Of a DNA stretch of 64,000 nucleotides, positions 194 through 25,971 are shown piece by piece (position 1 is the first letter of the stretch; each line of letters opens with the position of its first letter). The position numbers and the translations under genes were made by a program. This DNA comes from a virus: the IMG/VR virus record IMGVR_UViG_3300045988_092438, one strand, 5' to 3'. A model generated the notes under the pieces. It was not told the DNA's origin and searched no databases. It saw nothing but the letters and a program-made list of their open reading frames with translations.

Positions 194-1261
194 TTATGCA
201 ACTAACAACATTCCTCCGGCAATTCTCTCAAGCTCAATTCTTCTCTCAAGAGTGAAGTCCTGTGCAACTTGAGTAATAGAATTGATAAGACCCCATCTGT
301 TTCTGTTGTAAGTACCATCCTGCATAAGCTGAATAACTTTACCAGTACTTTCATCAGACATATTTGTGGAGTTCTTAATACTCTCAATAAGCTCCTTTAA
401 GGAATCTTCATCTTTAAAAGCGTCCTCAAGTGAAACTGTGGCTGTGTTCTTAATACTTTCTACCACCTTTGCAACAATAGGCTCTACTAAATCAAGAGCT
501 TCCTGCAAATTACTCTGGAACGCTTCTGTTGTGATACCTCTGTGTACTTGGTGGAATAACACACCGAATTTCTTCGGCACAATCAAACCATTGGTACACA
601 CTTTCTTCCAGATAAAGAAGTTCACTGTCAAGTTACTTCTACCAACATCACTTGAGTCAATGGAAAAGCCCGGATAAAGGTCTTCGTTATCAATAGGAAG
701 TCTTGTAGGTGACACCATTCTCATGTGCAATCTCTCTTCATTTAAGAAGAAACCTTTAATATTGTAGTCATCTACAGGGAAAGAGTCCTGCATACTCTGT
801 AAAATGGTAGGTGTATCGCACACTGAATATCTTGGTGTTAAAACACCTCTAATCTTTCCATTGTACTCACGGATAAACAGGTCTTTGTTAAAATCACTCA
901 GCCATGAGTTCATGTTATCTTGTGCAAGTTCAATTCTGCCAGAACTGATACACTTCTTCATATACTCATGTGGAACACCCACTTTGTTACACAACTGACC
1001 CATAGCGTGTCTGGAAATGCTAGGTCTTCTCACTTCACCACTTTCAGTAGTGTATGTGATACCTGCAAGGTCATTTAATCTCAGTCTTTCATCAGTGACA
1101 TTCCTCACTGTAAAATCTTCACATAAACTCTGAATGTTATGTGATTTATCCAGTATCATTTTAAATGATACTTTACCCATATCAAGTAACTCTCTTGTGT
1201 CTTCTGTTGGAGTAACAACCTGTGGTGTAATAATCTCCGTTGGTCTTTTCATCAGCTTCAT
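194..1261 (-). CDS. DUF932-like phage/plasmid protein (family call by eye)
   Basis: The track ORF starts at GTG 1294. ATG at 1261 follows AGGAGA (MKLMKRPTEI...). Long uninterrupted ORF. Confidence 0.5.
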   Translation of the reverse strand: MKLMKRPTEIITPQVVTPTEDTRELLDMGKVSFKMILDKSHNIQSLCEDFTVRNVTDERLRLNDLAGITYTTESGEVRRPSISRHAMGQLCNKVGVPHEYMKKCISSGRIELAQDNMNSWLSDFNKDLFIREYNGKIRGVLTPRYSVCDTPTILQSMQDSFPVDDYNIKGFFLNEERLHMRMVSPTRLPIDNEDLYPGFSIDSSDVGRSNLTVNFFIWKKVCTNGLIVPKKFGVLFHQVHRGITTEAFQSNLQEALDLVEPIVAKVVESIKNTATVSLEDAFKDEDSLKELIESIKNSTNMSDESTGKVIQLMQDGTYNRNRWGLINSITQVAQDFTLERRIELERIAGGMLLVA

Positions 1262-1367
1262 GTTATATCTCCTTTCTATAACTGCTTCATTCACTCAGCT
1301 TGTACACTCATTATAGAATAAAAAGAAAAAGAGGTCAAAACACCACTGTGTCTCAACCTCTTCACTA

Positions 1368-1910
1368 TTATACATCTTCTTCTAATAATACCCTCTTAAA
1401 GAGCTTCATTACTTTACCCGGCATTGCATGAGTTCTCACATACTTCTTTGCTTCTTCCGGTTCATCAAATGGCACCCAGTTAGAAAGATAGTTACCAAGT
1501 GCTTCATTATAACGTGGAACACCACATACATAATCTCTCATAAAGACTTTACTCTCAGCACCTTCTAAGTCAAGGTCTCTAATAGGACTGTCCTTTCTCT
1601 GTCTCAATTCATTCATAAGCTGTTCCGTAGAAATACTGGACACTTGGAAATTGATACTCTCAACTCTCTCAAATCTATGTGTCTGACCTGTCTGGTTATC
1701 CCATCTTTCAGAAATAGTACCTTTATCAGTCTCAATACTGTTCCACTCTTCTACAGGTCTCACAAATACTCCGTATTCTGGGTGACACACATTAAAGTAG
1801 TAGCATACCCAAATGTCTCTCACTGCGTCTTTTGCGATATTCTGTACAAAATAGTACTCACCTTTAAAGTGTCTGTACAACCCCTGCTTTACTGTAATAG
1901 ATTCATTCAT
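1368..1910 (-). CDS. DUF1653-like domain protein
   Basis: GLYRHFKGEYYFV..W motif at the N-terminus. GGAGG RBS before the ATG. Confidence 0.5.
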   Translation of the reverse strand: MNESITVKQGLYRHFKGEYYFVQNIAKDAVRDIWVCYYFNVCHPEYGVFVRPVEEWNSIETDKGTISERWDNQTGQTHRFERVESINFQVSSISTEQLMNELRQRKDSPIRDLDLEGAESKVFMRDYVCGVPRYNEALGNYLSNWVPFDEPEEAKKYVRTHAMPGKVMKLFKRVLLEEDV

Positions 1911-2564
1911 TTAGTAGTCCTCCTTACTTTCATAAGCAAATACAGTTCCATCAACTGTGTCATAAACAGGTAACTTATTCACCCAATTTTCAGTAACACT
2001 ATCACTGTAGAAATAACACACATACTCTGGTAAATCTGTGCCATGTACAATTACCTTATACACATTTGCTAAGGTCTCTGGCTCAACTACTATATCATCC
2101 ATCATTCCATTGTATGCTACTGAAAATTGAGGACACCCATTATTCTTCTCATAGATGACTTCTTCAACACTGCTAGGAAATTTACCACTATGTAGTCTGT
2201 TTAAGATTACTTGACACACATACTGTTGACTCAGTTCATGTCCTTTATAACTACCTGCTTCTGCTTCAACACATTGAGCAATCAAATAAACCTCTGCTTC
2301 TGTAAAATAGTAGTCAGCTATTTCTACTTCCTTCAACTCGTCATTTTCTTTTAACAACTTTCCATAGTCAATCTGTAATTCTTCATAACTCTCTTGCCAT
2401 GAATTGACTATTTTCTCATTATCACTTCTCTGCTTGTCTATTAAAGCTGTCTGCTCGTCATTCACCTCCAACAAGTCCATATAATCATCATTGGTCTTTA
2501 TAAAGAAGACAAGAAATAGCACAAGCAATACAAGGATAATTCCTTGATAAACATGTTCCTTCAC
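1911..2564 (-). CDS. membrane-anchored SleB/CwlJ-type cell wall hydrolase
   Basis: AQCVEAEAG...QVILNRL...FPSSVEEVI motif, N-terminal TM helix and coiled coil. AGGAGG sits 9 nt before GTG at 2564. Confidence 0.65.
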   Translation of the reverse strand: MKEHVYQGIILVLLVLFLVFFIKTNDDYMDLLEVNDEQTALIDKQRSDNEKIVNSWQESYEELQIDYGKLLKENDELKEVEIADYYFTEAEVYLIAQCVEAEAGSYKGHELSQQYVCQVILNRLHSGKFPSSVEEVIYEKNNGCPQFSVAYNGMMDDIVVEPETLANVYKVIVHGTDLPEYVCYFYSDSVTENWVNKLPVYDTVDGTVFAYESKEDY

Positions 2565-2627
2565 TTTTATAAACCTCCTAACTAAAAAAATAGCTTGCAT
2601 GATTTCTCACACAAGCTATTCTATCAT

Positions 2628-4310
2628 TTATTTTCGTGTTGGTAAAGTTTCCACAATAGAGTCAATAACCTTTCTCACATCACTTGCACCTGTACCAATA
2701 GAACTATACACATTGATAACATCAATCACTCTTTCAGAAAAACCAGTGATAAGGTTCTTTCTGTAGTCATCAATATTAGCAATAGCAAAGTTATTACCTA
2801 AAAGGTTATCAATGTAAAGTTTCTTAATGACCTTGTTTTTAAAGAGTTTATTCAACTCAGCGTCAGTATCATAACTTCTACCACCCCAACTATAACCCCT
2901 TCTTAAAACAAAGGTCTTTCCACTTAAACTGTAGCAATCATTATCAGAAAGTACAATCAGATTATCATACTTAGTGTCCTGCTGATTAAGAGTGTAAAGT
3001 GCTACATCAAGAGAAGTTCCACCTCCAACATTATGTCTCTGAATCTCTTTCATAATGTCCATGACTGTAGACTTTCTGGAAATGTTAGTTACCTGTTCAC
3101 ACTTAGTAGCAAATACATACACATCTGCAATACCTTTCTTAAAGCAGATAGCACCTAACATACAAGCTACAATGTCAGCGGTCACATCAGAAGCACCAGA
3201 AACAGGATGTCTCATACTTCCACTTCTATCAATAAGGATAGCACTGTAACCCTCAATGTCCTGTAAGTTATCAATAGACAGGTCAAGTGCTTCTATTAAA
3301 GCGTCCATGACTCTTCTCTTTCCGGCAGAATTACTCAGATTGGAAACTTCCATATATGCACTGTAGAATCTGAATGGTAACAGTCTGGACTTCTCAACCT
3401 CTTTCTTATTGGTGAGTTTAGCCACAATACTATCAACTGCTTCTTTATCACTAAACATACCTGCTCTGTCAAGGGCTACAAGGTTTTTCACAATAGCCAT
3501 TACAGAAGAGGTGTCAATAGACTTCTTAACATCAGCCTTAGTAGACTTGCTGTTGCTGTTCTTAGATTTAGAAAGCTCACTCTGCACCTGCTTCACTTCT
3601 TCACTGCCACCAAACTCTACATTACCCTCGATAATCTGCTTAAAGAAGTCTCTGCTGACTCTGGACTTAGCCGGATTAGGTCTCAACAGCTTTACACAAT
3701 CTGCCATAGACACTTCTCTGTTTTCTCCAAGTGCTTTAGATAACTGATACTCATTAAAGGACTCCAACTTGTGCTGTAAAGCCTTTCTCAACTGCATTGG
3801 AAGTGGCTGATTTCTGTGACTGGATTTATTCTTACCACGACCTTTTGTAGTCACTTCAAAACCAAACACATTCATCTGCATTGCCATAATGTCAGTAATG
3901 TCTTTACCTCTTCTCACAATATAGTCACTGTAAGTCTGTAACTTATTCTTACCAGTCACTTCATCAAGAAAGTCCTCACCCTTAAATCTTGGGTCATTAA
4001 AACAAGCTGTGAGTACTGCCAGAGGGTACTGAATCATATTGTATTCTCTACCAATTCTGGCTACCTTGAGTGCATACTCAACGTCCTCGTCTGGGATTTC
4101 TGCAATCAATCTCTGGATTTCTTTAAAATCACTCTCAGCAGTCTTGCCCTTCTCATAGAAAGTCTTCTCACCAAAGAAGCTACCTAACACTTTACTAAAC
4201 AGTGTTTCAAGAGTGTTCAGCTTATGTACCACACTTCCCTCGTGGTTCACTGTCTTTCTAGTGTCTGGTTTCATGTTTACACTACCACGTTTGTTGTTCA
4301 TTGTTGCCAT
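2628..4310 (-). CDS. rsr: Ro60-related protein (TROVE domain + vWA/MIDAS)
   Basis: Collinear by-eye similarity to Ro60: RLLPFRFYSAY, ILIDRSGSM (MIDAS DxSxS), GGGTS, IVLSDND, ITGFSERVIDVI. GGAGGA RBS before ATG 4310. Confidence 0.8.
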   Translation of the reverse strand: MATMNNKRGSVNMKPDTRKTVNHEGSVVHKLNTLETLFSKVLGSFFGEKTFYEKGKTAESDFKEIQRLIAEIPDEDVEYALKVARIGREYNMIQYPLAVLTACFNDPRFKGEDFLDEVTGKNKLQTYSDYIVRRGKDITDIMAMQMNVFGFEVTTKGRGKNKSSHRNQPLPMQLRKALQHKLESFNEYQLSKALGENREVSMADCVKLLRPNPAKSRVSRDFFKQIIEGNVEFGGSEEVKQVQSELSKSKNSNSKSTKADVKKSIDTSSVMAIVKNLVALDRAGMFSDKEAVDSIVAKLTNKKEVEKSRLLPFRFYSAYMEVSNLSNSAGKRRVMDALIEALDLSIDNLQDIEGYSAILIDRSGSMRHPVSGASDVTADIVACMLGAICFKKGIADVYVFATKCEQVTNISRKSTVMDIMKEIQRHNVGGGTSLDVALYTLNQQDTKYDNLIVLSDNDCYSLSGKTFVLRRGYSWGGRSYDTDAELNKLFKNKVIKKLYIDNLLGNNFAIANIDDYRKNLITGFSERVIDVINVYSSIGTGASDVRKVIDSIVETLPTRK

Positions 4311-4343
4311 AATAAATTCCTCCATTCTTTCATGTGTTTATAT

Positions 4344-4378
4344 AATAAAAGACCTCACAATCGGGGAATTGTGAAGTC
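4344..4378 (-). terminator. rho-independent terminator closing the RNA operon
   Basis: 11-bp stem 4351-4361/4368-4378. Its single non-Watson-Crick pair is G-U only on the minus strand, and TTTTATTATA follows. Confidence 0.7.
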
Positions 4379-4398
4379 CTTTAATCTTAACTCAAAAT

Positions 4399-4545
4399 AG
4401 CAAGAAGAAAACCATTATTGTGTGAAATCTTTGTGCTTCATTAGCAGTGAAGTGCCTTACCATTAGGCTATCTGTCAAATTTTTGGCTGACGGAGTAGGA
4501 GTCGAACCTACAAAATGATGTAAACAATAACTACACAATCCTGCT
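4399..4545 (-). ncRNA. stalk module 1: circularly permuted tRNA-like RNA (anticodon-type loop CUGCUAA, GCU), Y RNA/YrlA-like candidate
   Basis: Minus-sense order: outer helix AGCAGGA, loop TTGTGTA, inner helix GTTATTGT, T-arm GTAGG-TTCGACT-CCTAC. Then acceptor hairpin TCCGTCA-GCCAAAAATT-TGACAGA, D-arm GCCT-AATGGTA-AGGC and hairpin CTTCA-CUGCUAA-TGAAG. It closes with ACAATAAT, loop GGTTTTCT and TCTTGCT. Confidence 0.6.
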
Positions 4546-4564
4546 ACAATTATTTCTTCGTTAA

Positions 4565-4714
4565 AATTAGGAGTAAAGCCATTTAGCTGAATTTCATATA
4601 ATGAAAGTTTTCAAGACTTTTGCGTATTCCAATTTCGCCAAATTGCTTTTACAGAGCAATTATCGGATTTGAACCGATATATTATGATGTAAGCTAAATG
4701 TACACAACCCAATT
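4565..4714 (-). ncRNA. stalk module 2: circularly permuted tRNA-like RNA (anticodon-type loop CUUGAAA, UGA), Y RNA/YrlA-like candidate
   Basis: Outer helix AATTGGG/CCTAATT, inner helix CATTTAGCT/AGCTAAATG (9 bp perfect), third helix TCATA/TATGA. T-arm ATCGG-TTCAAAT-CCGAT. Perfect 7-bp acceptor hairpin AATTGCT-CTGTAAA-AGCAATT. D-arm GCG..CGC. Hairpin AAAGT-CTTGAAA-ACTTT. Confidence 0.65.
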
Positions 4715-4728
4715 ATTATTCTCTCATA

Positions 4729-4854
4729 AAGTGGAGTAAAACGATAAAGTCTGTTTGTTTATCATAATGGGATTTGAACCCATATTCGTTCTGTGTTAGA
4801 AAACTGTCTTAACCATTTGACTATATGATGTAAACTTTATCTGCACAACCACTT
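4729..4854 (-). ncRNA. stalk module 3 (leader-trailer stalk enclosing the tRNA at 4759..4830)
   Basis: Outer helix AAGTGG/CCACTT, inner helix GATAAAGT/ACTTTATC, internal loop TTGTGCA x GTTTTACT. Confidence 0.6.
4759..4830 (-). tRNA. cloverleaf tRNA with anticodon loop CUAACAC (reads AAC, nominally Val); atypical
   Basis: Hand fold: acceptor CATCATA/TATGATA with a C1-A72 mismatch, D-arm GTC..GAC with a GG loop, anticodon stem GTTTT/AGAAC, T-arm ATGGG-TTCAAAT-CCCAT. Confidence 0.55.
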
Positions 4855-4868
4855 AATTTACTTTTCAT

Positions 4869-5002
4869 CAATAAGGAAGAAAAACGTGAAAGACTTCTTT
4901 TTCATATTGTTGGAATTGAACCAACTACACTTATTTCCCAAAAATAATGCTCTACCGATTGAGCTAAACATGATGTAATCTTTCACTACACATTCCTTAT
5001 TG
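4869..5002 (-). ncRNA. stalk module 4 (leader-trailer stalk enclosing tRNA-Pro)
   Basis: Outer helix CAATAAGGAA/TTCCTTATTG (10 bp perfect), inner helix GTGAAAGA/TCTTTCAC, internal loop TGTGTA x GTTTTTC. Confidence 0.65.
4901..4973 (-). tRNA. tRNA-Pro (UGG)
   Basis: Acceptor TCATGTT/AATATGA, D-arm GCTC-AATCGGTA-GAGC, anticodon arm TTATT-TTTGGGA-AATAA, T-arm GTTGG-TTCAATT-CCAAC. Confidence 0.8.
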
Positions 5003-5059
5003 TTTTAACACTGCTTTCAGCGTGTTTACACTATAACACACATTCTGAAAGCTGTCAAA

Positions 5060-5132
5060 CTGCCCTTACTGGATTTGAACCAGTGAAATGCAGGAGTCAA
5101 AGTCCTGTGCCTTACCACTTGGCGAAAGGGCA
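5060..5132 (-). tRNA. tRNA-Gln (UUG)
   Basis: TGCCCTT-TC-GCCAAGTGGTAAGGC-A-CAGGA-CTTTGAC-TCCTG..ACTGG-TTCAAAT-CCAGT-AAGGGCA-G. The U1-A72 pair and D-arm resemble bacterial tRNA-Gln. Confidence 0.8.
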
Positions 5133-5292
5133 TTAAAGCTGACATTTTCTCACGCATTTACCTTCCACCAGTGACACTTCTTAGTCATCACCAATGGTAC
5201 AGTCGAGTGGAGGGGCTGTCAGCTCACCTACTTTGGCTTATCTCTAACACATGAAAGTGAGAGTGTTTCTCCGGCACATTACCTCCGAAGAG

Positions 5293-5365
5293 TCGGAATG
5301 ACACGACTTGAACGTGCGACAAATAGATTAAAAGTCTACTGCTCTACCAACTGAGCTACATTCCG
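5293..5365 (-). tRNA. tRNA-Lys (UUU)
   Basis: CGGAATG-TA-GCTCAGTTGGTAGAGC-A-GTAGA-CTTTTAA-TCTAT-TTGTC-GCACG-TTCAAGT-CGTGT-CATTCCG-A. Confidence 0.85.
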
Positions 5366-5590
5366 TTAAGTCACTGTGGTAGGAGAGTCCGTCTATTATA
5401 CTCTCTGTTCACACTTCATTGGATAGACTAAAGTGATTTCGGCTACTACCTCCTTGTCTGCTACTCATACATATCCGTCTTGTCTATCAAGACCTTTCGC
5501 TTTGGCAATCAACAAGTTTGTGACTATCAGCATTTTTATGTAAGTCCTCCACTCCTGGAATACCTTACTTAGTCGGCTGACAAGACTAAA

Positions 5591-5678
5591 CTGACTCAGA
5601 GGACTCGAACCTGTGCTACGCATATAGCGTACTAAAAGATTAGCAATCTCTCCTCTTCACCAACTTGAGTAACACTCC
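5591..5678 (-). tRNA. class II tRNA-Ser(GCU)-like element whose acceptor strands do not pair (pseudo-tRNA or tRNA-like RNA)
   Basis: D-arm CTC..GAG, anticodon arm AGAGA-TTGCTAA-TCTTT, long variable arm TACGC-TATAT-GCGTA, T-arm ACAGG-TTCGAGT-CCTCT with one C-C mismatch. The 5' strand GGAGTGT cannot pair with the 3' strand GAGTCAG. Confidence 0.4.
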
Positions 5679-5771
5679 ATTACAGACAGTGTGATTTTAA
5701 CACCCCTGCTCACTTATTTACACCAAAGGGCTTTGGCTGTAAACTGTCTGCGTCTCTTGAAGACATTTCAG

Positions 5772-5800
5772 AGTATATCACAGCTTAAAACTGCTGTCAA
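5772..5800 (-). promoter_or_regulatory. sigma70-type promoter for the RNA operon
   Basis: Minus-sense TTGACA (5800-5795), 17 nt, then TATACT (5777-5772) with a TG at the extended -10 position. It lies directly after the stop of the upstream CDS. Confidence 0.65.
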
Positions 5801-6145
5801 CTACTCCAAAAGCTGATTATCGTCTAACACCTGTAAGATACAGTTATTCATCTTTCTCCACACCTTCATGTAAAAGATAGCAACCTTCTCTTCGGTGTCA
5901 TCATCTAAATCAAGTCCGGCTTCATTTGCAAAAGCATGGAACATTTCATGTGCCACTATCTCACAAGTCCTAACATCACGTTCTGTCTCACTACACCCAT
6001 TTTCTTTAGAGTGTAAGCAGTACAGCTCTTTGTCATACATTCGACACTCACCCATGTTACCTTCGGAAAGTCTCTTTAACTCTTTTCTCTTTCCAACTTG
6101 AACATCATAGTCAGTACCTAACACGTTTACAATAGTGTGTTTCAT
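5801..6145 (-). CDS. small putative zinc metallopeptidase (HExxH)
   Basis: HEMFH motif. GGAGG RBS before ATG 6145, with an ATGA overlap onto the upstream stop. Confidence 0.55.
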   Translation of the reverse strand: MKHTIVNVLGTDYDVQVGKRKELKRLSEGNMGECRMYDKELYCLHSKENGCSETERDVRTCEIVAHEMFHAFANEAGLDLDDDTEEKVAIFYMKVWRKMNNCILQVLDDNQLLE

Positions 6146-6357: not shown

Positions 6358-6457
6358 GTACCTTCTTCCTCACTTTCTAAATTTCTTGTCTTTTCTTTGA
6401 CTGGCTCTATTATATCATACTCACTAAATCAGTCAAACGTCCTTCTCGGCTCTTCCT

Positions 6458-6539
6458 GCATTACGTCTTTAACAATAAATTATTTAATTATTTATATATT
6501 ATATATTATATTAAAGACTTATTGTTAATGATGTAATGC
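6458..6539. repeat. imperfect 21-nt inverted repeat flanking an extremely AT-rich core
   Basis: gcattacgtctttaacaataa (6458-6478) matches the rc of ttattgttaatgatgtaatgc (6519-6539) at 19/21 positions. The core is attatttaattatttatatattatatattatattaaagac. Confidence 0.7.
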
Positions 6540-6602
6540 CAGTTCCACTCATTCTTCGGACCATTCTTTAACACTGCTATATTCAGTGTTTAACACACAT
6601 TT

Positions 6603-7342
6603 ACCTCACATATACAGTGTTTTATGGACCACTTACCACACTCACAAAATACCTCACAGAATTTTAACACCTCACTTTCTCACCTTTCTCTCACAACACC
6701 TCACACATACAGGGGTATGGGGTTATTTTATACACATACCTTACCAAAATCTCGCCCAGTTCTAAGATACTAGGTGCAGTCTCGGCAGTCCACAGACCAT
6801 TTAAGGGTGGGGTGGACATATAAATTTTGGAAAATCAGTGTGTTTTCTCATAAAATCTTCACCAATTTTCAAACCATGTTGTTTTCTTCAATAATTTCTT
6901 GTGTTATGAATGAAATCATAAAATTTTTATTCAAAAGAATTTATATTTATACATTGTGTGTATAGTATTGTATATCACTTGTGTTATGTGTTGTGTATAC
7001 TATATGTAGTGTGTATCATGTGTATATAGTGTATGTATATACTATATGTAGTGTATGGGTGTACAATAAAATAAATGAATAATTATTACTTATTTACAGT
7101 GATTATACATATAATATACATAGAACTATTAAAAGACCACATATAGTATATTCAAATATATCACCAATTTTTATGCGGATATAGAGATATACTACCTACC
7201 ATATATTTCTTTATATATGTCTTTATTATAGCCTTCCACCCTCACCTCTTCTCACATCACAAATTTTTCTCACAGAATATTTTCATTTCAGTGACTTTCC
7301 AGAACCTCACTCACCTCTTTTAGTGTTTTTATATAACCTCAC
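6603..7342. repeat. dispersed ACCTCAC / TTCTCAC motif copies in a 1.1-kb non-coding region
   Basis: Exact ACCTCAC at 6603, 6651, 6669, 6698, 7304 and 7336, plus several CCCTCAC/TTCTCAC variants. Confidence 0.6.
6996..7054. repeat. 17-nt direct repeat tatactatatgtagtgt (x2) inside a TG/TA-rich low-complexity stretch
   Basis: Copies at 6996-7012 and 7038-7054. Confidence 0.7.
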
Positions 7343-7444
7343 AAAAAAATCACTAAATACTCTTTCGGGCTTTTCTCACTTACAACACACCAACACCTTT
7401 TAATCACCTTCTGGCACACCCTCGCTACACACTGGCACATAACC

Positions 7445-7476
7445 AAAAAAGAAGAGGAGCATATCTCAGCTCCTCT
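7445..7476 (-). terminator. rho-independent terminator
   Basis: AGAGGAGC/GCTCCTCT stem followed by TCTTTTTTGG on the minus strand, just after the stop at 7495. Confidence 0.7.
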
Positions 7477-16338: not shown

Positions 16339-18417
16339 CTAAATATCAGCGTCCACTATATCTTCTTTTTTATCTTCATCACTCTTACCTAAGTCACCGA
16401 AAATTTTCTCTAAAATTCCTCCACGTTGTGGGTTCGTGACTTGAGTAGTCATTTCCTGTGTACCATCACTTCTGAGAATTTTGGTTTGTCTGAGAACTTC
16501 TGTACTTCCATTCTCATACATAGCTTTAAGCTGTCCTAAATATCTCATAGACTGGTCCATCATAGCAGACACATTCGGGTCTGGCAGTCCACCTTCAAGC
16601 ATTTCAAACATCATGGTTCTTTGTAATCTTCCCAGTGAGAAGTCCACAATACCCTGCATAGCTTGAATAATATCACCCATATCCCTTGTGTCAAACTTAT
16701 CAAAGATTTTGTTATAAGCACAAGCAAATCCGGCTTTATATTCTGGACATTTCTGAGCCGCATAACAGGTATCACAAGCCAGTTTAGGAAACTTCTTTGA
16801 GTACATCTTTTTTGGCTTCAACACTTGTCTCTGACCTTTAAGGAAGTGTCCATGTTCATCACGGATAGGTGTAATTCCCTCTTCTGCAAAGATTTCATCA
16901 TCTAAAGAATCAATCTCTGGTGCTTCACCATCAGTACTCTCTGGCAGGTATTTTGAAAGGACATTAAGGACTTCCATTTCAGAAACGTCCTCAGTGTCAT
17001 ATTCATCATCTGTGATATAAGTCTCACGCTCTTTCACTACCCTGTCAAAATTCGTGCCGAGAAGTAAGAGTTTATCATTCTCACCTAAAAGGTTCTCTTT
17101 GTAGAACTGAATAAGGTCAGTGACCCTTTCTTCATCACTCTGGACAATCCTGTTGATATAGAGGTCATGGATTTCTTTAATCACCTCTGGTGTATAAACC
17201 CGATTGATAAAGTCTGCATAATCTGGGTTATCCCAGTTCATAAAACAGGTCATATCAATAACACAGTTTAAAGCCTGTACTCTGTCCTCTTTAGAGACAT
17301 TAAAGAGTTCTGCATAGTGTTCCCATGTAGCGTCCTGCTCTTCTGGATTGTCTAACCACTCTGGTGTAGGGTATTCAATAGAGTCAAGGTCTGCTTCTGT
17401 TCTCTTCTCTCCCTTTGGTCTTAACCAGTACATTCTGGCTCTACACTGCTTCTGAATATATTCCTCTGCTTCAATAAAAGCATGAACATTTACCCTAATC
17501 ATTTCTGTGCTGTCTTCATCAAGTAACTTCTGTTCATCAAAGCCCAGAGAAACAAGTTTCGGGAGCATATTACCCTTCCACTTGTCTTTCTTTAAACGTG
17601 TCATCTTCTTACCAGTCCAGTAGTTGACTTCACCATACTGCAATCCTACCATCCACGTTGTAGAGTCTACTGTGTAAAATGGGAGGGAAGTTAAAAGAGA
17701 AGTCTTTGTCATAGCCATTCCATGTACAACAGTATTATATTTCTCTGTAATTCTAAGTCGGTCTCTGCAAATTCTCTCTCCGTCATCAGAGTCAAACTCC
17801 CAAGGCATACCAATATAGGGATAACGCTGTGCATATTGTTCCCAAGTTCTTGCTGTCTGCCCTTCATGGTAAATGAAACACACTGGAATACCTGTCTCAA
17901 GCATAAAAGGCTCAAAGTACTTTTCATTCCACTGCTGAACAATCTCTGGGTCAACATGACCTTCAATATCAAGATTGGCAATAGCAAAGATAATGTCCTT
18001 GTGCTTTTTAGCCCATTTTAAATATCTATCAATCTGTTTCTCCCAGTCTTCAATAGTGAACTCGGCATACTTAGAGTCATTCCGGTAAGTGTAAGCACCA
18101 GAGTCAACAAAGAATTTGATACCAAGACCACTAAACTTATCAACATTCATGTGTTTATTCTGCACATACTGATAGGACACCAGAAAGTTTCTGATACCCA
18201 TATCATACAGAATGTCGAAGTTTCTTTCATCTTCAACACCAGAGTATAACATATGAAAGTCCTGTTCATGGTCTACAATATCCCACAATGTCTTTGGCTT
18301 CTCTTGTACTGCTTCACCAGAATGGTCTTCTTTATTCGTAATTTGATTAAATTTGGACTTTCCAGAAGACTCTGGGGTATTTGTAGGCATTGCCTTTTTG
18401 AGCTTTAATTTAGGCAT
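16339..18417 (-). CDS. dpdA: DpdA-like (TGT-fold) 7-deazaguanine DNA transglycosylase with a ~350-aa C-terminal extension
   Basis: FFVDSGAYTYR, VVHGMAMTK and YTVDSTTWM motifs in the N-terminal half. Sits next to folE/queC/queE/queD. The C-terminal part carries CDTCYAAQKCPEYKAGFAC. Confidence 0.6.
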   Translation of the reverse strand: MPKLKLKKAMPTNTPESSGKSKFNQITNKEDHSGEAVQEKPKTLWDIVDHEQDFHMLYSGVEDERNFDILYDMGIRNFLVSYQYVQNKHMNVDKFSGLGIKFFVDSGAYTYRNDSKYAEFTIEDWEKQIDRYLKWAKKHKDIIFAIANLDIEGHVDPEIVQQWNEKYFEPFMLETGIPVCFIYHEGQTARTWEQYAQRYPYIGMPWEFDSDDGERICRDRLRITEKYNTVVHGMAMTKTSLLTSLPFYTVDSTTWMVGLQYGEVNYWTGKKMTRLKKDKWKGNMLPKLVSLGFDEQKLLDEDSTEMIRVNVHAFIEAEEYIQKQCRARMYWLRPKGEKRTEADLDSIEYPTPEWLDNPEEQDATWEHYAELFNVSKEDRVQALNCVIDMTCFMNWDNPDYADFINRVYTPEVIKEIHDLYINRIVQSDEERVTDLIQFYKENLLGENDKLLLLGTNFDRVVKERETYITDDEYDTEDVSEMEVLNVLSKYLPESTDGEAPEIDSLDDEIFAEEGITPIRDEHGHFLKGQRQVLKPKKMYSKKFPKLACDTCYAAQKCPEYKAGFACAYNKIFDKFDTRDMGDIIQAMQGIVDFSLGRLQRTMMFEMLEGGLPDPNVSAMMDQSMRYLGQLKAMYENGSTEVLRQTKILRSDGTQEMTTQVTNPQRGGILEKIFGDLGKSDEDKKEDIVDADI

Positions 18418-18422
18418 ATCTC

Positions 18423-18992
18423 TTACCCCTTTCTTCTCTCTTTAAATTCCTCATAACTGTCTTCAAATCCCGGATGTGTTCTTTTAAAGTATGTGATAGT
18501 ACTGCAATCACTCTCAGCACCACGACACTTCACACACTGGTGTGTTGCTTCTACCTCTACAAAGAGTGCATGAGGTTCAAGCATATTAAACAGGAACTCT
18601 CCAATCTCTGTAGTCAGCTTCTCCTGTAACTGTGGTCTCTTACTAAAGTACTTCACCACTCTTGGAAGTTTTGACAGTCCAATGATTGTGTCACTCGGAA
18701 CATAACCAATAGTGACTTTGCCGGAGAAAGGTAAGAAGTGGTGTTCACAAGTAGAGTTAAATTCAATATCCCTTACAATCACCATTTCACTCTCATACTC
18801 ATTCGGAAAGGTAGTCATGGTCTCCTTTAACTCCTTCATGTGAGCGTCATTCACATTTGCAAATAACTCATTCACCCACATCTTAGCCACTCTGAGGGGA
18901 GTGTTCTTATTGCTCTCTGTCTTTGGGATTTCAAGAATTCTCATAATCTCTTCAAGATGTTCCTTAATTGCTTCTACTTTGTTATTTATCAT
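18423..18992 (-). CDS. folE: GTP cyclohydrolase I
   Basis: CEHHFLPF, GLSKLPR and HQC..RG motifs. Confidence 0.85.
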   Translation of the reverse strand: MINNKVEAIKEHLEEIMRILEIPKTESNKNTPLRVAKMWVNELFANVNDAHMKELKETMTTFPNEYESEMVIVRDIEFNSTCEHHFLPFSGKVTIGYVPSDTIIGLSKLPRVVKYFSKRPQLQEKLTTEIGEFLFNMLEPHALFVEVEATHQCVKCRGAESDCSTITYFKRTHPGFEDSYEEFKERRKG

Positions 18993-19032
18993 AGTATATA
19001 CCTCCTTTATCTTGTAATCTTCATTATAACAT

Positions 19033-19069
19033 AAAAAAGCACTGGGTCAACCTATTGTCAACCCAATGC
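19033..19069 (-). terminator. rho-independent terminator
   Basis: 9-bp stem (with a G-U pair on the minus strand only) followed by TTTTTT. Confidence 0.6.
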
Positions 19070-19095
19070 TCTCTTACTTTTTGGCTGTGTGACGA

Positions 19096-19242
19096 TTATC
19101 GACCACGAACACGGTTTACTACGTTGGAAATACCATTACGGATAGCTCTTCCTGCTCTCTGAATAGCATTACCACCTCTACCGCTACGAGTAGAATTACC
19201 ACCACTACGTCCATTGCTAGGACCTGCGTATGCTTTCATCAT
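19096..19242 (-). CDS. 48-aa Gly/Arg/Asn-rich peptide, absent from the ORF track
   Basis: MMKAYAGPSNGRSGGNSTRSGRGGNAIQRAGRAIRNGISNVVNRVRGR. GGAGGA lies 7 nt upstream. Confidence 0.45.
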   Translation of the reverse strand: MMKAYAGPSNGRSGGNSTRSGRGGNAIQRAGRAIRNGISNVVNRVRGR

Positions 19243-19365
19243 AGTTTCGTCCTCCTTTTTGTATATTTGATTAAGGGTGTTCTTATAACAGGGGAATATA
19301 CATAAACACCTGTTAAAGTACGTTTTCTTAATCTTCTCTTACTATACCAGAGGAGCTTATCAAAG

Positions 19366-19983
19366 TCAATATGTTTCGCCATAAATTTCTTCAAGTGCAA
19401 GACAATCTGGACACTTCCCACAAGGGAAAATTTTCAGTGTTGGCTCGTTACATGAAAAGAAATCTGCCGGAGTAATATTGTGCTGTCTGGCTATGTCTTT
19501 AAAATCCCATTTATCCATATCTATGAATGGTGTTTCAATCTTTATATCAGAGTCTTTCAACACCTGCTCAAGATTATTAAAGAACTCACCAGTACAGTCA
19601 ATATATTCATGCCCCGGAATTGATTTAATTACAGCTACATAGATTTTCTTACTACCAATTCCTTGTGCTAAAGAAGAAGCATAAGCCATGAAGATAAGAT
19701 TGCGGTACTCTAAATACTGAGCGTCACCATCTAGGTCTGAGTGTTTTCTACCATAGAGAGTACTTGCTGTCCATCTAATAGGGTCAAGTCTCACATTATG
19801 ATAAATCATGTTCAGTTTCTTACACACCTTCTTAGCACAATGAGTTTCCATGAGTCGATTTCTGTTTCCATATTCAAAATGAAGGGAGTGAATTTCTGCG
19901 TCTGGGTGTTGGTCTCTTACATAGTGGCACAAACACACACTATCAAAACCACCACTGTTAAGTACAACAATCTTTTCTTTCAT
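19366..19983 (-). CDS. queC: 7-cyano-7-deazaguanine (preQ0) synthase
   Basis: VVLNSGGFDS PP-loop motif and C-terminal Cys cluster CGKCPDC. Confidence 0.85.
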   Translation of the reverse strand: MKEKIVVLNSGGFDSVCLCHYVRDQHPDAEIHSLHFEYGNRNRLMETHCAKKVCKKLNMIYHNVRLDPIRWTASTLYGRKHSDLDGDAQYLEYRNLIFMAYASSLAQGIGSKKIYVAVIKSIPGHEYIDCTGEFFNNLEQVLKDSDIKIETPFIDMDKWDFKDIARQHNITPADFFSCNEPTLKIFPCGKCPDCLALEEIYGETY

Positions 19984-19986
19984 AAA

Positions 19987-20313
19987 CTACCTCCGAAACA
20001 CATCTGGAATATCAGCCGGAAGAGAACTTCTTGAAGGTTTAGCTTTATTCACCGGATTGTGATAAAGAGGTTGACCCACGTTTCTCTGCTGTTTCTTCTC
20101 TTCTGGCTGTGATGTTCTAACAGGTTTTCTTCCTGCTACTTTATTCAGTCCATTGAGTCTTGCTGTCTCTTCATCTAAAATCTCTTTAGCTCCAATTTTA
20201 GCTCCATCATATCTTTCTTTGTCTGCCTTGATTTCTTCGGCTCTTGCTAAAGTGCGAGCGTCATCACGTCTCTGCCACTTTAACTCTTCTGGGTCTACTG
20301 GTCTTCTAATCAT
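19987..20313 (-). CDS. hypothetical charged protein
   Basis: 108 aa, GGAGGTAGGAAG RBS. Confidence 0.5.
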   Translation of the reverse strand: MIRRPVDPEELKWQRRDDARTLARAEEIKADKERYDGAKIGAKEILDEETARLNGLNKVAGRKPVRTSQPEEKKQQRNVGQPLYHNPVNKAKPSRSSLPADIPDVFRR

Positions 20314-20582
20314 CTTCCTACCTCCTCATAAGTCTTTTCAAAAATGTCTGGTTTGCATGGATAATATTCTCCGTTGACACCCTTGATGATATAATCTCCC
20401 ACACTTGCGTTCATAACACCTTCAAGTGTCTCAATCTTGAGTACAGGATTTTCTGGGTCTTCATAATTAACCCTTAAATCTTGAGTAGTGATAAACTCCG
20501 AAAGCTCACAAAGTCTTTCTGGGTTATCCAGAAATTGCACTGCTTCAATCACTACTGGTTTCTTTCTATATTGCTTTGCCAT
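20310..20582 (-). CDS. hypothetical phage protein
   Basis: 90 aa, GGAGG RBS. Confidence 0.55.
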   Translation of the reverse strand: MAKQYRKKPVVIEAVQFLDNPERLCELSEFITTQDLRVNYEDPENPVLKIETLEGVMNASVGDYIIKGVNGEYYPCKPDIFEKTYEEVGR

Positions 20583-20583
20583 A

Positions 20584-21225
20584 TTACTTTACCTCCAAAA
20601 TCTTATGAAGCTGTATCTGCACACGAACATCTAAATGGTCTTCCAGAATCCAATCAACTAATTCATGTCCAATGTATGCTTTTCCATCTGGGTTAAACAT
20701 AGGACTGACAAGAATTTTTGCGGAAGTAGGATATTTCTTCATTACTCCCTTCATAAACTCATAGTCTTCTCTGTCCTTGATGACATACTTAACCTCGTCA
20801 GTGTTTTGGAGTTTTAAAAGATTCTCATAAATGTTCTTGTGTTTCACTCCACTGGAAGGACCTTTAATGTCCATCACATATTTGTAACTTCGTCTGTAGC
20901 TTGGTTCTTCAAGTGGTACACACCCACTTGTCTCAATGGAGACTTTAAATCCCAGTGATTGTAATTCATATACCAGTGGTAATGCTTCATCATAGATTAA
21001 AGGTTCTCCACCAGTCAAGCAGATGTTCTTACACCACTTGTAGTCTTTGAGTACTGTCTGGACTATGTTACCCACAGAAATTCTCTTTCTGTCCTCTTTC
21101 TTCTGAGGTTGGTCGCAATAAGAACAACCAACAGGACACCCAAACAGACGGATAAAGACACAAGGAAGACCTGTATCACTTGACTCTCCCTGTATGCTAC
21201 AGAAAATTTCATCATAGTATAACAT
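20584..21225 (-). CDS. queE: 7-carboxy-7-deazaguanine synthase (radical SAM)
   Basis: SIQGES..G.PCVFIRLFGCPVGCSYCD motif. Confidence 0.85.
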   Translation of the reverse strand: MLYYDEIFCSIQGESSDTGLPCVFIRLFGCPVGCSYCDQPQKKEDRKRISVGNIVQTVLKDYKWCKNICLTGGEPLIYDEALPLVYELQSLGFKVSIETSGCVPLEEPSYRRSYKYVMDIKGPSSGVKHKNIYENLLKLQNTDEVKYVIKDREDYEFMKGVMKKYPTSAKILVSPMFNPDGKAYIGHELVDWILEDHLDVRVQIQLHKILEVK

Positions 21226-21237
21226 AGTCTTACCTCC

Positions 21238-21618
21238 TTATGACTCTAAAATAGAGTACTCTGCATAACTATCTGCTGTCTCCCACAGCTTCACACTTAC
21301 AAGGTGAACACCCTCTGGCAATCTGGAAATAATGTCGGAAGAAATAACCGAAACCATATTCTCTGCTGTCGGGTTAGGGAAATAGTCATTGAGATTGCAG
21401 TGGTCGTATTTATCCACAGCTACCTCTTTAACAATACGTTTCAAATCTTTAAAGTCAATAATCATTCCGCACTTTGGATTGTTCGTGTCTTTAATGATGT
21501 TGCCACCAACTGTCACACTGAGTTTGTAGGAGTGTCCATGAAGATTGTGACAAGCTCCTACATAGTGTGGCAGGTGGTGACACGCTTCAAAGCTAAAGTT
21601 CTTTGTTACTGTAATCAT
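21238..21618 (-). CDS. queD: 6-carboxytetrahydropterin synthase
   Basis: FSFEACHHLP..HNLHGHSY motif. GGAGG RBS before ATG 21618. The track's 48-aa N-terminal extension overlaps the upstream gene and was rejected. Confidence 0.85.
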   Translation of the reverse strand: MITVTKNFSFEACHHLPHYVGACHNLHGHSYKLSVTVGGNIIKDTNNPKCGMIIDFKDLKRIVKEVAVDKYDHCNLNDYFPNPTAENMVSVISSDIISRLPEGVHLVSVKLWETADSYAEYSILES

Positions 21619-21631
21619 CACCTGCACCTCC

Positions 21632-25593: not shown

Positions 25594-25971
25594 TTACCTG
25601 TATTCAAAAGAACCATTGGTGTTGTCGATTCTATCATATATTACCATGTGCATAGCTTCTTTTGTTTCATCACTTATAGTAAGTTTCATCATTCCACAGG
25701 GTAGTTCTAGATCTACCACTTCTTCTATAGTGTTGGGATAGTCAGAACTCCATACTCTATTCAATGCAACAATGATGTTATAGGCTCTGTCTTCTACAGT
25801 TCCTCCTTTATTTTCTGCCATAAGCATTAAATACTTGCTATCTTCTGCACTCCAATCTATTGAGTACTTATCTTGAAACTTAGTGTGCGTCTCTTCTTTT
25901 GCAGAACACCCACTTAACAGAAAGCAAACAGCACACAAAATTATAAGTTTTCTTTTCATCTTACACCTCAT
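25594..25971 (-). CDS. lipoprotein with a SleB-like hydrolase-domain remnant
   Basis: Lipobox LLSGC, and IVALNRVWSSDYPNTIEEVV. The start could instead be ATG 25959. Confidence 0.55.
   Translation of the reverse strand: MRCKMKRKLIILCAVCFLLSGCSAKEETHTKFQDKYSIDWSAEDSKYLMLMAENKGGTVEDRAYNIIVALNRVWSSDYPNTIEEVVDLELPCGMMKLTISDETKEAMHMVIYDRIDNTNGSFEYR

What the first reader, a model, noticed from the sequence alone, without database searches (positions are those of the whole stretch)
4399..5002. Four tandem RNA modules share a two-helix stalk with covarying helices around a conserved internal loop
In minus sense each module has the same layout: outer helix, loop strand TTGTGTA, inner helix, TTACA, structured core, inner-helix complement, loop strand G(G/C)TTT(T/A)CT, outer-helix complement. 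The helix sequences differ in every module but stay complementary. Module 1 pairs AGCAGGA/TCTTGCT and GTTATTGT/ACAATAAT. Module 2 pairs AATTGGG/CCTAATT and CATTTAGCT/AGCTAAATG. Module 3 pairs AAGTGG/CCACTT and GATAAAGT/ACTTTATC. Module 4 pairs CAATAAGGAA/TTCCTTATTG and GTGAAAGA/TCTTTCAC. The loop strands, in contrast, are conserved: TTGTGTA, TTGTGTA, TTGTGCA, TGTGTA on one side and GGTTTTCT, GCTTTACT, GTTTTACT, GTTTTTC on the other. All three non-Watson-Crick pairs in these helices are G-U on the minus strand and A-C on the plus strand, which fixes the transcribed strand. A conserved asymmetric loop clamped by terminal helices is the architecture of a Y-RNA protein-binding stem, and also of an RNase III-type processing stalk. 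I know of no described motif with these loop sequences.
Basis: seen in the sequence. Interest (0 to 1): 0.9.

Follow-up and report, generated by a model that had tools for sequence, protein, structure and literature searches.

The report
Phage Y RNAs built around tRNAs
Four small RNAs encoded just upstream of a gut phage's Ro60 gene each hold a tRNA, or a circularly rearranged tRNA, inside the same conserved two-helix stalk; they look like a new, sequence-distinct branch of the already known tRNA-mimicking Y RNAs that partner with Ro60.

Summary
On the minus strand at 4398-5002 there are four tandem modules. Each has an outer helix, a conserved 7x8-nt internal loop (N-UGUG-Y-A opposite R-N-U-U-U-N-C-U), an inner helix, and UUACAUCAU. 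In 45 distinct stalks from related phage contigs, all 14 tested stalk pairs covary and 98.9% of cells are paired.

M3 and M4 are complete cloverleaf tRNAs. M1 and M2 are circularly permuted tRNAs (T arm, closed acceptor, D arm, anticodon arm).

The array has its own conserved promoter and terminator. It sits directly upstream of a Ro60 (TROVE+vWA) gene. Every bona fide module found in Ro60-blind DNA scans lies on a Ro60 contig.

This is the design of bacterial and phage Y RNAs (YrlA and Yrn1, Chen 2014). However, the defining GNCGAA motif is absent and Rfam YrlA scores only 28.7 bits against a cutoff of 69.

A model built here also matches, end to end, RNAs annotated as plain tRNAs next to Ro60 in crAss-like phages.

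Best reading: four Ro60-binding Y RNAs of an undescribed subfamily. That makes it a new variant of a known kind. Binding itself is inferred, not shown.

The parts
4869..5002 (-). Module M4. Outer helix 4993-5002/4869-4878. 5' loop UGUGUA 4987-4992. Inner helix 4979-4986/4886-4893. UUACA 4974-4978. Core 4901-4973 is a canonical-order tRNA (anticodon UGG). A-rich 3' junction 4894-4900. 3' loop GUUUUUC 4879-4885.
   Evidence: tRNA 61.1 bits; R1 122 bits
4729..4854 (-). Module M3. Outer helix 4849-4854/4729-4734. 5' loop UUGUGCA 4842-4848. Inner helix 4834-4841/4743-4750. Core 4759-4830 is a canonical-order tRNA-like RNA (anticodon AAC, C1-A72 mismatch). 3' loop GUUUUACU 4735-4742.
   Evidence: (57.6 bits)
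4565..4714 (-). Module M2. Outer helix 4708-4714/4565-4571. 5' loop UUGUGUA 4701-4707. Inner helix 4692-4700/4580-4588. Core 4594-4687 is a circularly permuted tRNA: T arm, 7-bp acceptor hairpin closed by a loop, D arm, anticodon arm with loop CUUGAAA. 3' loop GCUUUACU 4572-4579.
   Evidence: (tRNA 24.5 bits, partial)
4398..4546 (-). Module M1. Outer helix 4539-4546/4398-4405. 5' loop UUGUGUA 4532-4538. Inner helix 4524-4531/4414-4421. UUACA 4519-4523. Core 4428-4518 is a permuted tRNA: T arm, acceptor 3' strand followed by G-CCA and an A/U linker then the acceptor 5' strand, D arm, anticodon arm with loop CUGCUAA. 3' loop GGUUUUCU 4406-4413.
   Evidence: (YrlA 28.7 bits, E=1.4e-3)
5030..5058 (-). 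Sigma-70-type promoter TTGACA-17-TGTTATAGT, about 25 nt upstream of M4. Conserved upstream of the first module in 12 related lineages.
4340..4382 (-). Intrinsic-terminator-like hairpin (17-bp stem, -20 kcal/mol) followed by a U-run, between M1 and the Ro60 start. Conserved in position in related loci with different stem sequences.
2628..4325 (-). Ro60 homologue (565 aa; TROVE plus Ro60-type vWA domain). It is the presumed protein partner.

Best explanation
The four modules are four Y RNAs of a phage Ro60 ribonucleoprotein.

Transcription (inferred from sequence). They are made as one transcript from their own promoter (5058-5030) and end at a terminator (4382-4340) just before the Ro60 gene.

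Stalk (inferred). In each RNA the 5' and 3' ends pair into a two-helix stalk. Its conserved, pyrimidine-rich asymmetric loop (5' N-UGUG-Y-A, 3' R-N-U-U-U-N-C-U) and the invariant 5' strand element UUACAUCAU would be the docking site for the phage Ro60 ring. This would correspond to the bulged stem of other Y RNAs, whose 5' strand Ro60 reads.

tRNA domain (shown by sequence and covariation). The stalk presents a tRNA-shaped domain. In M3 and M4 it has the normal order, with the stalk extending the acceptor stem as in D. radiodurans Yrn1. In M1 and M2 it is circularly permuted, with the acceptor closed by a loop as in YrlA.

Role of the tRNA domain (inferred). It would recruit tRNA-recognising host or phage factors to Ro60, or act as a decoy for them. 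Candidates are RNase P, the CCA-adding enzyme, modification enzymes, nucleases and PNPase.

Shown: the anatomy, the covariation, the genomic coupling to Ro60, and the transcription-unit signals. Inferred: Ro60 binding, processing into four RNAs, and the role of the tRNA domain.
For: 1. Stalk covariation with invariant loops.

2. Genomic coupling to Ro60.
- Modules lie directly upstream of Ro60, on the same strand, in every locus of this Ro60 family at 60-97% identity.
- A Ro60-blind DNA pattern scan of metagenomes returned 12 true stretches. Each had Ro60 downstream wherever the contig extended far enough. The other 3 matches were chance hits inside coding sequence.
- In the viral scans, all bona fide modules were on Ro60 contigs.

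3. The partner protein is a Ro60. It matches TROVE at 5.7e-15 and vWA_Ro60 at 9.7e-9. The nearest solved structure is the Ro60 of Thermus phage phiLo (6.5e-16). That protein binds two stem-bulge-stem Y-like RNAs encoded upstream of its gene in gel-shift assays (PMC12135203).

4. Family resemblance to known Y RNAs.
- Sub-threshold YrlA matches recur on permuted modules: 28.7, 38.4, 31.5 and 30.1 bits.
- UUAC matches the conserved YUAY of YrlA (PMC4201824).
- Both tRNA-domain orientations are already known for Y RNAs, in YrlA and Yrn1.
- M1's 7-bp acceptor followed by N73-CCA mirrors M. smegmatis YrlA, which is cut by RNase P and CCA-tailed while remaining bound to Ro60.

5. The array is a separate transcription unit. 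The promoter and terminator are conserved with sequence turnover.

6. The ordinary phage tRNAs upstream (Gln, Lys) have no stalk. Model R1 matches them only locally.

7. The same design occurs next to Ro60 genes that are only about 24% identical, in crAss-like phages. R1 matches those RNAs at 62-68 bits over its full length.

8. The cores do not behave like decoding tRNAs.
- The acceptor end (CA)UCAU.../...RUGA-A is constant whatever the anticodon.
- Relatives carry Ser-GCU and Tyr-GUA anticodons on bodies without the long variable arm.
- Some phages carry the same anticodon once on a free tRNA and once on a stalk-embedded one.
Against: - No binding, expression or RNA-end data exist for these RNAs.
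- The published Ro60-recognition motifs are absent from the stalk: GNCGAAN0-1G, CGAA in the bulge, and GGUCCGA.
- Rfam YrlA is far below its gathering score, and Rfam Y_RNA gives no match.
- M3 and M4 score as perfectly good tRNAs (57.6 and 61.1 bits; called by ARAGORN). They could simply be tRNA genes with paired leader and trailer.
- In some relatives ordinary tRNAs sit between the modules. The array is therefore embedded in tRNA-processing territory.
- Other conserved neighbours (DUF1653, DUF932) could in principle be the binding partner.
Confidence: 0.7

Rival explanations
1. The stalk is a leader-trailer duplex of tRNA precursors. It acts as a processing or regulatory element that controls the release of functional phage tRNAs by RNase P, RNase Z or RNase III. 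For M1 and M2 the products would be two-piece tRNAs. Ro60 is only a neighbour, or at most a chaperone.
For: - M3 and M4 pass the tRNA gathering score and are called by ARAGORN.
- M1 encodes N73-CCA directly after the acceptor 3' strand, followed by a linker and the 5' strand, as in permuted tRNA genes.
- Anticodon loops keep the 7-nt form with U33 and R37 in most copies.
- Ordinary tRNAs are co-located in the array in L128 and L132.
- The stem / asymmetric loop / stem layout resembles phage T7 RNase III sites (my own knowledge, not tested here).
Against: - Canonical tRNAs of the same cluster lack the stalk.
- The stalk occurs only beside Ro60.
- The invariant loop and the UUACAUCAU sequence, set against freely covarying helices, point to a sequence-specific protein. 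RNase III has little sequence specificity.
- The two helices are only 6-10 bp and 8-9 bp long.
- The acceptor ends are the same for nine different anticodons.
- Class II anticodons sit on class I bodies.
- Some copies have C33 or G33, and M3 has a C1-A72 mismatch.
- One relative has a non-tRNA core in the same stalk (L139:199).
Confidence: 0.12
2. The stalk binds a different phage or host protein, or serves only as a nuclease-resistant clamp. Candidates include one of the conserved neighbours DUF1653 or DUF932, or a host tRNA-binding factor. Its adjacency to Ro60 would reflect co-regulation only.
For: - The Ro60-(Hydrolase_2)-DUF1653-DUF932 gene order is conserved.
- The known Ro60 motifs are absent from the loop.
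Against: - crAss-like phages share the stalk design next to Ro60 but not the DUF1653/DUF932 neighbours.
- Every characterised Ro60, including a phage one, binds RNAs of this stem-bulge-stem design encoded next to its gene (PMC4201824, PMC12135203).
Confidence: 0.08
3. The modules are permuted or split tRNA genes that mature through a circular intermediate. The stalk would be the splice-and-ligate signal, as the bulge-helix-bulge motif is for permuted tRNA genes of Cyanidioschyzon merolae.
For: - M1 and M2 have the order 3'-half, linker, 5'-half.
- M1 has an encoded CCA.
Against: - There is no 3-4-3 bulge-helix-bulge. The loop is 7x8 nt.
- The same stalk flanks unpermuted tRNAs (M3, M4), which need no circularisation.
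- No splicing endonuclease or RtcB-type ligase was seen among the 39 window ORFs scanned. This scan was partial.
Confidence: 0.03

Closest known systems
YrlA (Y RNA-like A; Rfam RF02553; Chen et al. 2014, PMC4201824)
   Same: - Encoded within 4 kb of Ro60 on the same strand.
- The 5' and 3' ends pair into a stem with an internal loop.
- A YUAY element (here UUAC) follows the stem.
- The tRNA-like domain has the order T arm, closed acceptor stem-loop, D arm (M1, M2).
- A 7-bp acceptor followed by CCA matches the RNase P-cleaved YrlA of M. smegmatis.
- Several Y RNAs per locus, processed from one precursor.
   Different: - The GNCGAAN0-1G motif is absent. The loop is N-UGUG-Y-A opposite R-N-UUU-N-CU.
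- The score is 28.7 bits against a gathering score of 69.
- M1 and M2 keep a complete anticodon arm, and the stalk leaves from the variable-arm position rather than replacing the anticodon stem.
- UUACAUCAU is invariant.
Deinococcus radiodurans Yrn1 (Y RNA with the tRNA-like domain in the opposite orientation)
   Same: The Y stem takes the place of, or extends, the acceptor stem. The domain has the normal order D, anticodon-like arm, T (M3, M4), as described in PMC4201824.
   Different: - Yrn1 has only a partial D arm and a 6-nt 'anticodon' loop.
- M3 and M4 are complete cloverleaves that pass tRNA detectors.
- The Ro60-binding sequence differs.
Thermus phage phiLo Yrl1 and Yrl2 with phage Ro60 (PMC12135203; PDB 9KOP, 9L5Y)
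   Same: - A phage-encoded Ro60, and the nearest solved homologue of the window's protein.
- Two stem-bulge-stem RNAs are encoded upstream of the gene.
- Binding was shown by gel shift.
   Different: - The phiLo RNAs carry CGAA in the bulge, and no tRNA cores are described for them.
- The window has four modules with a different loop sequence.
Stalk-embedded 'tRNAs' next to Ro60 in crAss-like phages (csAssE-Sib OR575929.1; cr111_1 MT774387.1), annotated only as tRNA genes
   Same: - Outer helix, 5' loop with U-N-GUG, inner helix, UUAC-N-UC, tRNA core, and 3' loop N-N-UU-N-UC-Y.
- Model R1 matches them over its full length at 62-68 bits.
   Different: - Their Ro60 is only about 24% identical.
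- The 5' loop is UGGUGA or UAGUGA rather than UUGUGYA.
- To my knowledge they have not been described as Y RNAs (searches found no mention).
Phage T7-type RNase III processing signals
   Same: Lower stem, asymmetric internal loop, upper stem. This resemblance is from my own knowledge.
   Different: - No link to Ro60 is known for those signals.
- Here the loop sequence is invariant, the helices are short, and the stalk is absent from the other tRNAs of the same phage.

Membership tests
YrlA (RF02553) | Encoded within about 4 kb of a Ro60 orthologue on the same strand | tested here: met
   M1 ends 73 nt upstream of the Ro60 start codon, and all four modules are on the minus strand. The same holds in all 21 related loci.
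YrlA (RF02553) | GNCGAAN0-1G motif in the 5' strand of the terminal stem (the proposed Ro60 contact) | tested here: not met
   A regular-expression search over 4331-5070(-) finds none. CGAA occurs three times, never in the stalk loop.
YrlA (RF02553) | tRNA-like domain ordered T arm, closed 'acceptor' stem-loop, D arm, with a conserved YUAY before it | tested here: met
   M1 and M2 meet this: the RNAalifold consensus shows covariation in all arms and UUAC is invariant. M3 and M4 have the opposite (Yrn1-like) order.
YrlA (RF02553) | Reaches the Rfam gathering score (69 bits) | tested here: not met
   M1 scores 28.7 bits (E=1.4e-3) and the other modules give no match. Relatives score 30-38 bits.
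YrlA / Y RNA in general | Bound and stabilised by Ro60; carries psi55 and D modifications | not testable with these tools
   Needs immunoprecipitation, gel shift or modification mapping.
Metazoan-type Y RNA (RF00019) | Matches the model; GGUCCGA bulged helix | tested here: not met
   No Y_RNA match at E<=10 in 3900-5900. No GGTCCGA.
tRNA (RF00005) | Cloverleaf that reaches the gathering score (29 bits) and is called by a tRNA finder | tested here: met
   M3 scores 57.6 bits and M4 61.1 bits, and both are called by ARAGORN. M1 (27.7) and M2 (24.5) fall below the cutoff because they are permuted.
tRNA (functional decoder) | Acceptor and discriminator identity elements appropriate to the anticodon; class II body for Ser and Tyr | tested here: not met
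   The 26 distinct stalk-embedded cores carry 9 anticodons. All begin (CA)UCAU or UCGU and end RUGA-A-like. Ser-GCU and Tyr-GUA copies lack a long variable arm. Aminoacylation itself is not testable here.
RNase III processing stalk | About two turns of dsRNA flanking the transcripts to be released; used generally in the operon | tested here: inconclusive
   The helices are 6-10 bp and 8-9 bp, separated by a 7x8 loop. The stalk is absent from the Gln and Lys tRNAs of the same cluster. Cleavage was not testable.
Permuted tRNA genes with a bulge-helix-bulge motif | 3-nt bulge, 4-bp helix, 3-nt bulge at the junction of the termini | tested here: not met
   The junction is an 8-9-bp helix, a 7x8-nt loop and a 6-10-bp helix.

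The most novel reading that the evidence does not exclude
The stalk is a universal Ro60 'socket', and phages plug whole tRNAs into it in any circular permutation. The anticodon triplets are under diversifying selection. Examples are GCU/UUU/GUU inside an otherwise identical M1 arm, GUU versus GUC, and GCA versus UCC.

The Ro60-tethered tRNAs would then work in one of two ways. They could be decoys or sensors for host anticodon nucleases and other tRNA-targeting defences. Alternatively they could be a protected reservoir of pro-tRNAs released on demand.

This system would be common in abundant human-gut phages, including Crassvirales, where the RNAs are currently annotated as ordinary tRNA genes.
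Probability: 0.15. Interest if true: 0.85.

Novelty: new variant of a known kind. Interest (0 to 1): 0.6.

Why it matters
- Ro60 and Y RNAs are conserved from bacteria to humans, and Ro60 is a lupus autoantigen. The purpose of the tRNA-like module of bacterial Y RNAs is still unknown.
- This lineage offers a natural experiment. One constant stalk carries full tRNAs in at least three circular permutations, with fast-changing anticodons, in up to four copies per phage.
- It defines a candidate new Ro60-recognition motif (U-N-GUG ... UUAC-N-UC opposite UU-N-UC) that could be tested directly by gel shift.
- It indicates that crAss-like and other gut phages encode Y RNAs that databases currently label as tRNA genes. 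That affects phage tRNA censuses and codon-usage arguments.
- It also suggests that Rfam's YrlA model misses a large phage branch.

Tried and rejected
- **Close GenBank relatives.** A near-identity DNA search of GenBank phages found no relative, only a 57-nt tRNA-Gln match.
- **Short DNA-pattern scans of viral contigs.** They were useful only after filtering for pairing.
- **Genome collection scan.** It returned one 2.8-kb contig of a Spirochaetia MAG. The host cannot be inferred from it.
- **A distant Ro60 locus (L137, 24% identity).** It shows no module or YrlA match.
- **Known Ro60 motifs.** GNCGAAN0-1G, CGAA in the loop, GGUCCGA and Rfam Y_RNA were all negative.
- **Alternative pairing in M1.** The Rfam YrlA alignment pairs UUGUGU with ACACAA in M1. 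I rejected this because the other modules have no such partner and the covarying inner helix explains all of them.
- **Kink-turn or bulge-helix-bulge reading of the loop.** Rejected on sequence: there are no tandem G-A pairs and no 3-4-3 geometry.
- **RNA repair enzymes.** No RtcB or RNA ligase was found among the 39 ORFs scanned. There is only a weak nucleotidyltransferase-like hit at 25594-25971. The window was not scanned exhaustively.
- **Two review papers.** PMC10870794 and PMC6047535 were not held in the library.
Full report
**1. What is in the sequence**

On the minus strand, 4398-5002 holds four tandem modules, called M4, M3, M2 and M1 in transcription order. All have the same plan:
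- an outer helix of 6-10 bp;
- a 5' loop strand (U/A)UGUG(U/C)A;
- an inner helix of 8-9 bp;
- UUACAUCAU;
- a core of 72-94 nt;
- an A-rich junction;
- the inner-helix complement;
- a 3' loop strand G-N-UUU-N-CU;
- the outer-helix complement.

The three non-Watson-Crick pairs are G-U on this strand.

Each module folded alone gives the stalk as its minimum-free-energy structure. At a fixed register each module has 14/14 stalk pairs. Dinucleotide shuffles of the downstream sequence reach that in 0-1 of 2000 trials. The 5' signature occurs four times in the 64 kb, against zero expected. A covariance model built later finds exactly these four full-length matches in the window.

**2. What the cores are**

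M4 (4901-4973) and M3 (4759-4830) are complete cloverleaf tRNAs. ARAGORN calls them Pro-UGG and Val-AAC, and Rfam tRNA scores them 61.1 and 57.6 bits.

M1 and M2 are circularly permuted tRNAs. Their order is a T arm (GGUUCGA/GGUUCAA loops), then a 7-bp acceptor stem closed by a loop, then U8-A9, then a D arm with A14 and G18-G19, then a complete anticodon arm. The stalk emerges where the variable arm would be.

In M1 the acceptor 3' strand is followed by G-CCA, a short A/U linker and the acceptor 5' strand. Most relatives keep N73-CCA there. Rfam's YrlA model matches M1 at 28.7 bits (E=1.4e-3), well below its gathering score of 69.

**3. Context**

The ORF 73 nt downstream (2628-4325, minus strand) is a Ro60 homologue. 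It matches TROVE at 5.7e-15 and the Ro60 vWA domain at 9.7e-9. Its nearest solved structure is the Ro60 of Thermus phage phiLo (6.5e-16), followed by D. radiodurans Rsr and Xenopus Ro60.

The window is a phage. It encodes DNA polymerase, helicases, baseplate and tail proteins, an endolysin and NrdD. No close relative exists in GenBank. Homologous Ro60 proteins (60-97% identity) come from gut-metagenome contigs of about 85 kb.

A strong sigma-70-type promoter (TTGACA-17-TGTTATAGT, 5058-5030) lies just upstream of M4. A 17-bp hairpin followed by a U-run (4382-4340) follows M1. In 12 or more related lineages both signals are kept in position while their sequences drift. The array is therefore its own transcription unit, set between an ordinary tRNA cluster (Lys, Gln and a degenerate Ser) and the Ro60 gene.

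**4. Comparative evidence**

I collected 21 further loci through the Ro60 protein. All carry 2-4 modules directly upstream of Ro60.

Forty-five distinct stalks were aligned without gaps.
- In the 5' loop, UGUG and the final A are invariant. In the 3' loop, U3, C7 and U8 are invariant.
- All 14 helix pairs show double-sided changes and 98.9% of cells are paired.
- The covariation score is 0.936 against 0.229 in shuffles (0/500).
- Registers slid by 1-3 columns give 42-56% paired.

These stalks had been selected for pairing. The unselected figure is that 85 of 90 motif hits in Ro60 loci have a full stalk. Chance motif hits elsewhere rarely have one, and never with the 3' loop consensus.

RNAalifold on full modules recovers the stalk plus the D, anticodon and T stems (type A). 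For the permuted type B it recovers the stalk plus the T, closed-acceptor, D and anticodon stems. Compensatory changes occur in 27/28 and 26/33 pairs respectively.

**5. Coupling to Ro60**

A Ro60-blind pattern (5' loop, UUACAUCAU, T loop) scanned over metagenomes gave 15 stretches. Twelve are true modules, and each has a Ro60 homologue downstream wherever the contig continues. The other three are chance matches inside coding sequence, with no stalk.

In the viral scans every bona fide module lies on a Ro60 contig. The phage's ordinary tRNAs match the module model only locally, without a stalk.

**6. The cores behave as exchangeable tRNA mimics rather than decoders**

- Twenty-six distinct canonical-order cores carry nine anticodons: UGG, AAC, GCA, UCC, GUU, GUC, GCU, GAU and GUA. 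All keep the same acceptor start (CA)UCAU and end RUGA-A.
- The Ser-GCU and Tyr-GUA copies lack the long variable arm.
- Some copies have C33 or G33.
- Stalks with an identical inner helix (GAUAAAGU) host cores with a median identity of only 72% (minimum 48%). In L136 such a stalk hosts a core with a third permutation: anticodon arm, T arm, closed acceptor, D arm.
- One relative has a non-tRNA core (L139:199).
- Anticodon triplets change inside otherwise identical arms. M1 has GCU, UUU or GUU. L128 has GUU where L132 has GUC.
- Some phages carry the same anticodon both on a free tRNA and on a stalk-embedded one.

**7. Comparison with what is known**

Chen et al. 2014 (PMC4201824) described YrlA RNAs near Ro60 in more than 250 bacteria and 22 phages. 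The features they list are:
- a terminal stem carrying GNCGAAN0-1G;
- a conserved YUAY;
- a tRNA-like T / closed-acceptor / D domain.

[quoted passage not shown] D. radiodurans Yrn1 has the tRNA-like domain in the opposite orientation. Both topologies seen here are therefore known in principle.

Thermus phage phiLo Ro60 binds two upstream-encoded stem-bulge-stem RNAs that carry CGAA (PMC12135203).

The window's modules share the architecture, the genomic position, YUAY (as UUAC) and the tRNA mimicry. They lack GNCGAA, loop CGAA and GGUCCGA, and they fail the YrlA gathering score. They also differ in three ways:
- they keep complete anticodon arms;
- they include full cloverleaves that tRNA finders accept;
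- they have an extended invariant 5' strand (UGUGYA ... UUACAUCAU).

**8. The design extends beyond this lineage**

GenBank phages hold 96 records with Ro60 homologues, all below 30% identity to this one.

In the crAss-like phage csAssE-Sib, the two genes annotated tRNA-Tyr and tRNA-Lys directly upstream of Ro60, plus a permuted module before them, sit in the same kind of stalk. It has a 5' loop UGGUGA, UUACUUCGAA and a 3' loop GCUUUUCC. The same holds for a "tRNA-Gln" of phage cr111_1.

A covariance model built only from this window's family (R1) matches those three RNAs end to end at 62-68 bits, with the stalk pairs formed by different sequences. Ordinary tRNAs match it locally at 28-39 bits.

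R1 and Rfam YrlA both give weak to moderate hits upstream of Ro60 in Xanthomonas phage Tabio (YrlA 52 bits) and Bacillus phage G. This links the new subfamily to YrlA.

I found no paper describing Y RNAs in crAss-like phages. The TROVE protein of crAss001 is reported only as an early gene.

**9. Mechanism and verdict**

The best-supported reading (confidence about 0.7) is that these are four Y RNAs of the phage Ro60 RNP. The stalk loop and the UUACAUCAU strand would be the Ro60 docking site. The tRNA-shaped cores would be effector or decoy modules.

The rivals are less well supported:
- leader-trailer processing stalks of real tRNAs;
- a different protein partner;
- splice-and-ligate maturation of permuted tRNAs.

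The reasons are that the stalk is exclusive to Ro60 neighbourhoods, its loop is sequence-invariant while its helices drift, and it flanks permuted and unpermuted cores alike.

Binding, processing and function are all inferred. Nothing here measures RNA ends or protein contacts.

The finding is real and interesting. It is a new variant of a known kind rather than a new class.

Noticed in passing
window 16339-22159 (-): A 7-deazaguanine (preQ0) gene set. It comprises a tgt/DpdA-like protein (16339-18417), GTP cyclohydrolase I (18423-18992), QueC (19366-19983), a radical-SAM QueE-like protein (20584-21225) and PTPS/QueD (21238-21762). It probably serves DNA (or tRNA) deazaguanine modification. 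Several module anticodons in relatives are GUN, the class that tRNA-guanine transglycosylases act on.
   Followed up: partly
window 21632-22159 (-): ORF with a Tad2-like (Thoeris anti-defence 2) domain, E=1.6e-25.
   Followed up: no
window 5598-5671 (-): A degenerate tRNA-Ser(GCU)-like sequence (Rfam tRNA 24.4 bits, below the cutoff; not called by ARAGORN). The orthologous position in relatives is called as tRNA-Ser with a long variable arm.
   Followed up: partly
window 5772-5800 and 5030-5058 (-): Two near-consensus promoters share TTGACAGC. One precedes the ordinary tRNA cluster and the other precedes the Y-RNA array.
   Followed up: partly
related loci: M1 orthologues (L125:3217-3356, L129:3273-3418 and others); L128:2955-3082 versus L132:2892-3019: Anticodon triplets differ (GCU/UUU/GUU; GUU/GUC; GCA/UCC) while the surrounding loop and stem nucleotides are identical. 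This suggests selection acting on the triplet itself.
   Followed up: partly
L270 (OR575929.1) 1945-2372; L273 (MT774387.1) 1363-1492: In crAss-like phages, genes annotated tRNA-Tyr, tRNA-Lys and tRNA-Gln near Ro60 are embedded in the same two-helix stalk with UUAC. They match this family's covariance model over its full length (62-68 bits).
   Followed up: yes
L272 (Bacteroides phage PhiCrAssBcn17) 4183-4326 and 4437-4575: Downstream of the TROVE gene there are two tRNA-like RNAs (acceptor stem plus T arm). Each is interrupted by an insert of about 70 nt that contains UUACUUCAA. They may have an inside-out version of the same design.
   Followed up: no
L128:2881-2952, L132:3023-3096: In some relatives ordinary tRNAs without a stalk (Glu-UUC, Asp-GUC) sit between stalk modules inside the array.
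   Followed up: no
window 194-2600 (-) and loci L138-L146: The gene order downstream of Ro60 is conserved: (Hydrolase_2 cell-wall hydrolase) - DUF1653 - DUF932-like protein.
   Followed up: partly
window 6400-7450 (-): A non-coding stretch of about 1 kb. It has AT/CA-rich repeats (TATAC/ACAC units around 6960-7080) and many GTGAG(G/A) boxes (6600-7440). Its function is unknown.
   Followed up: no
window 25594-25971 (-): A 125-aa ORF with a weak match (E=5e-4, below the cutoff) to the covalent nucleotidyltransferase (capping enzyme/ligase) catalytic domain. It may be a ligase fragment.
   Followed up: no
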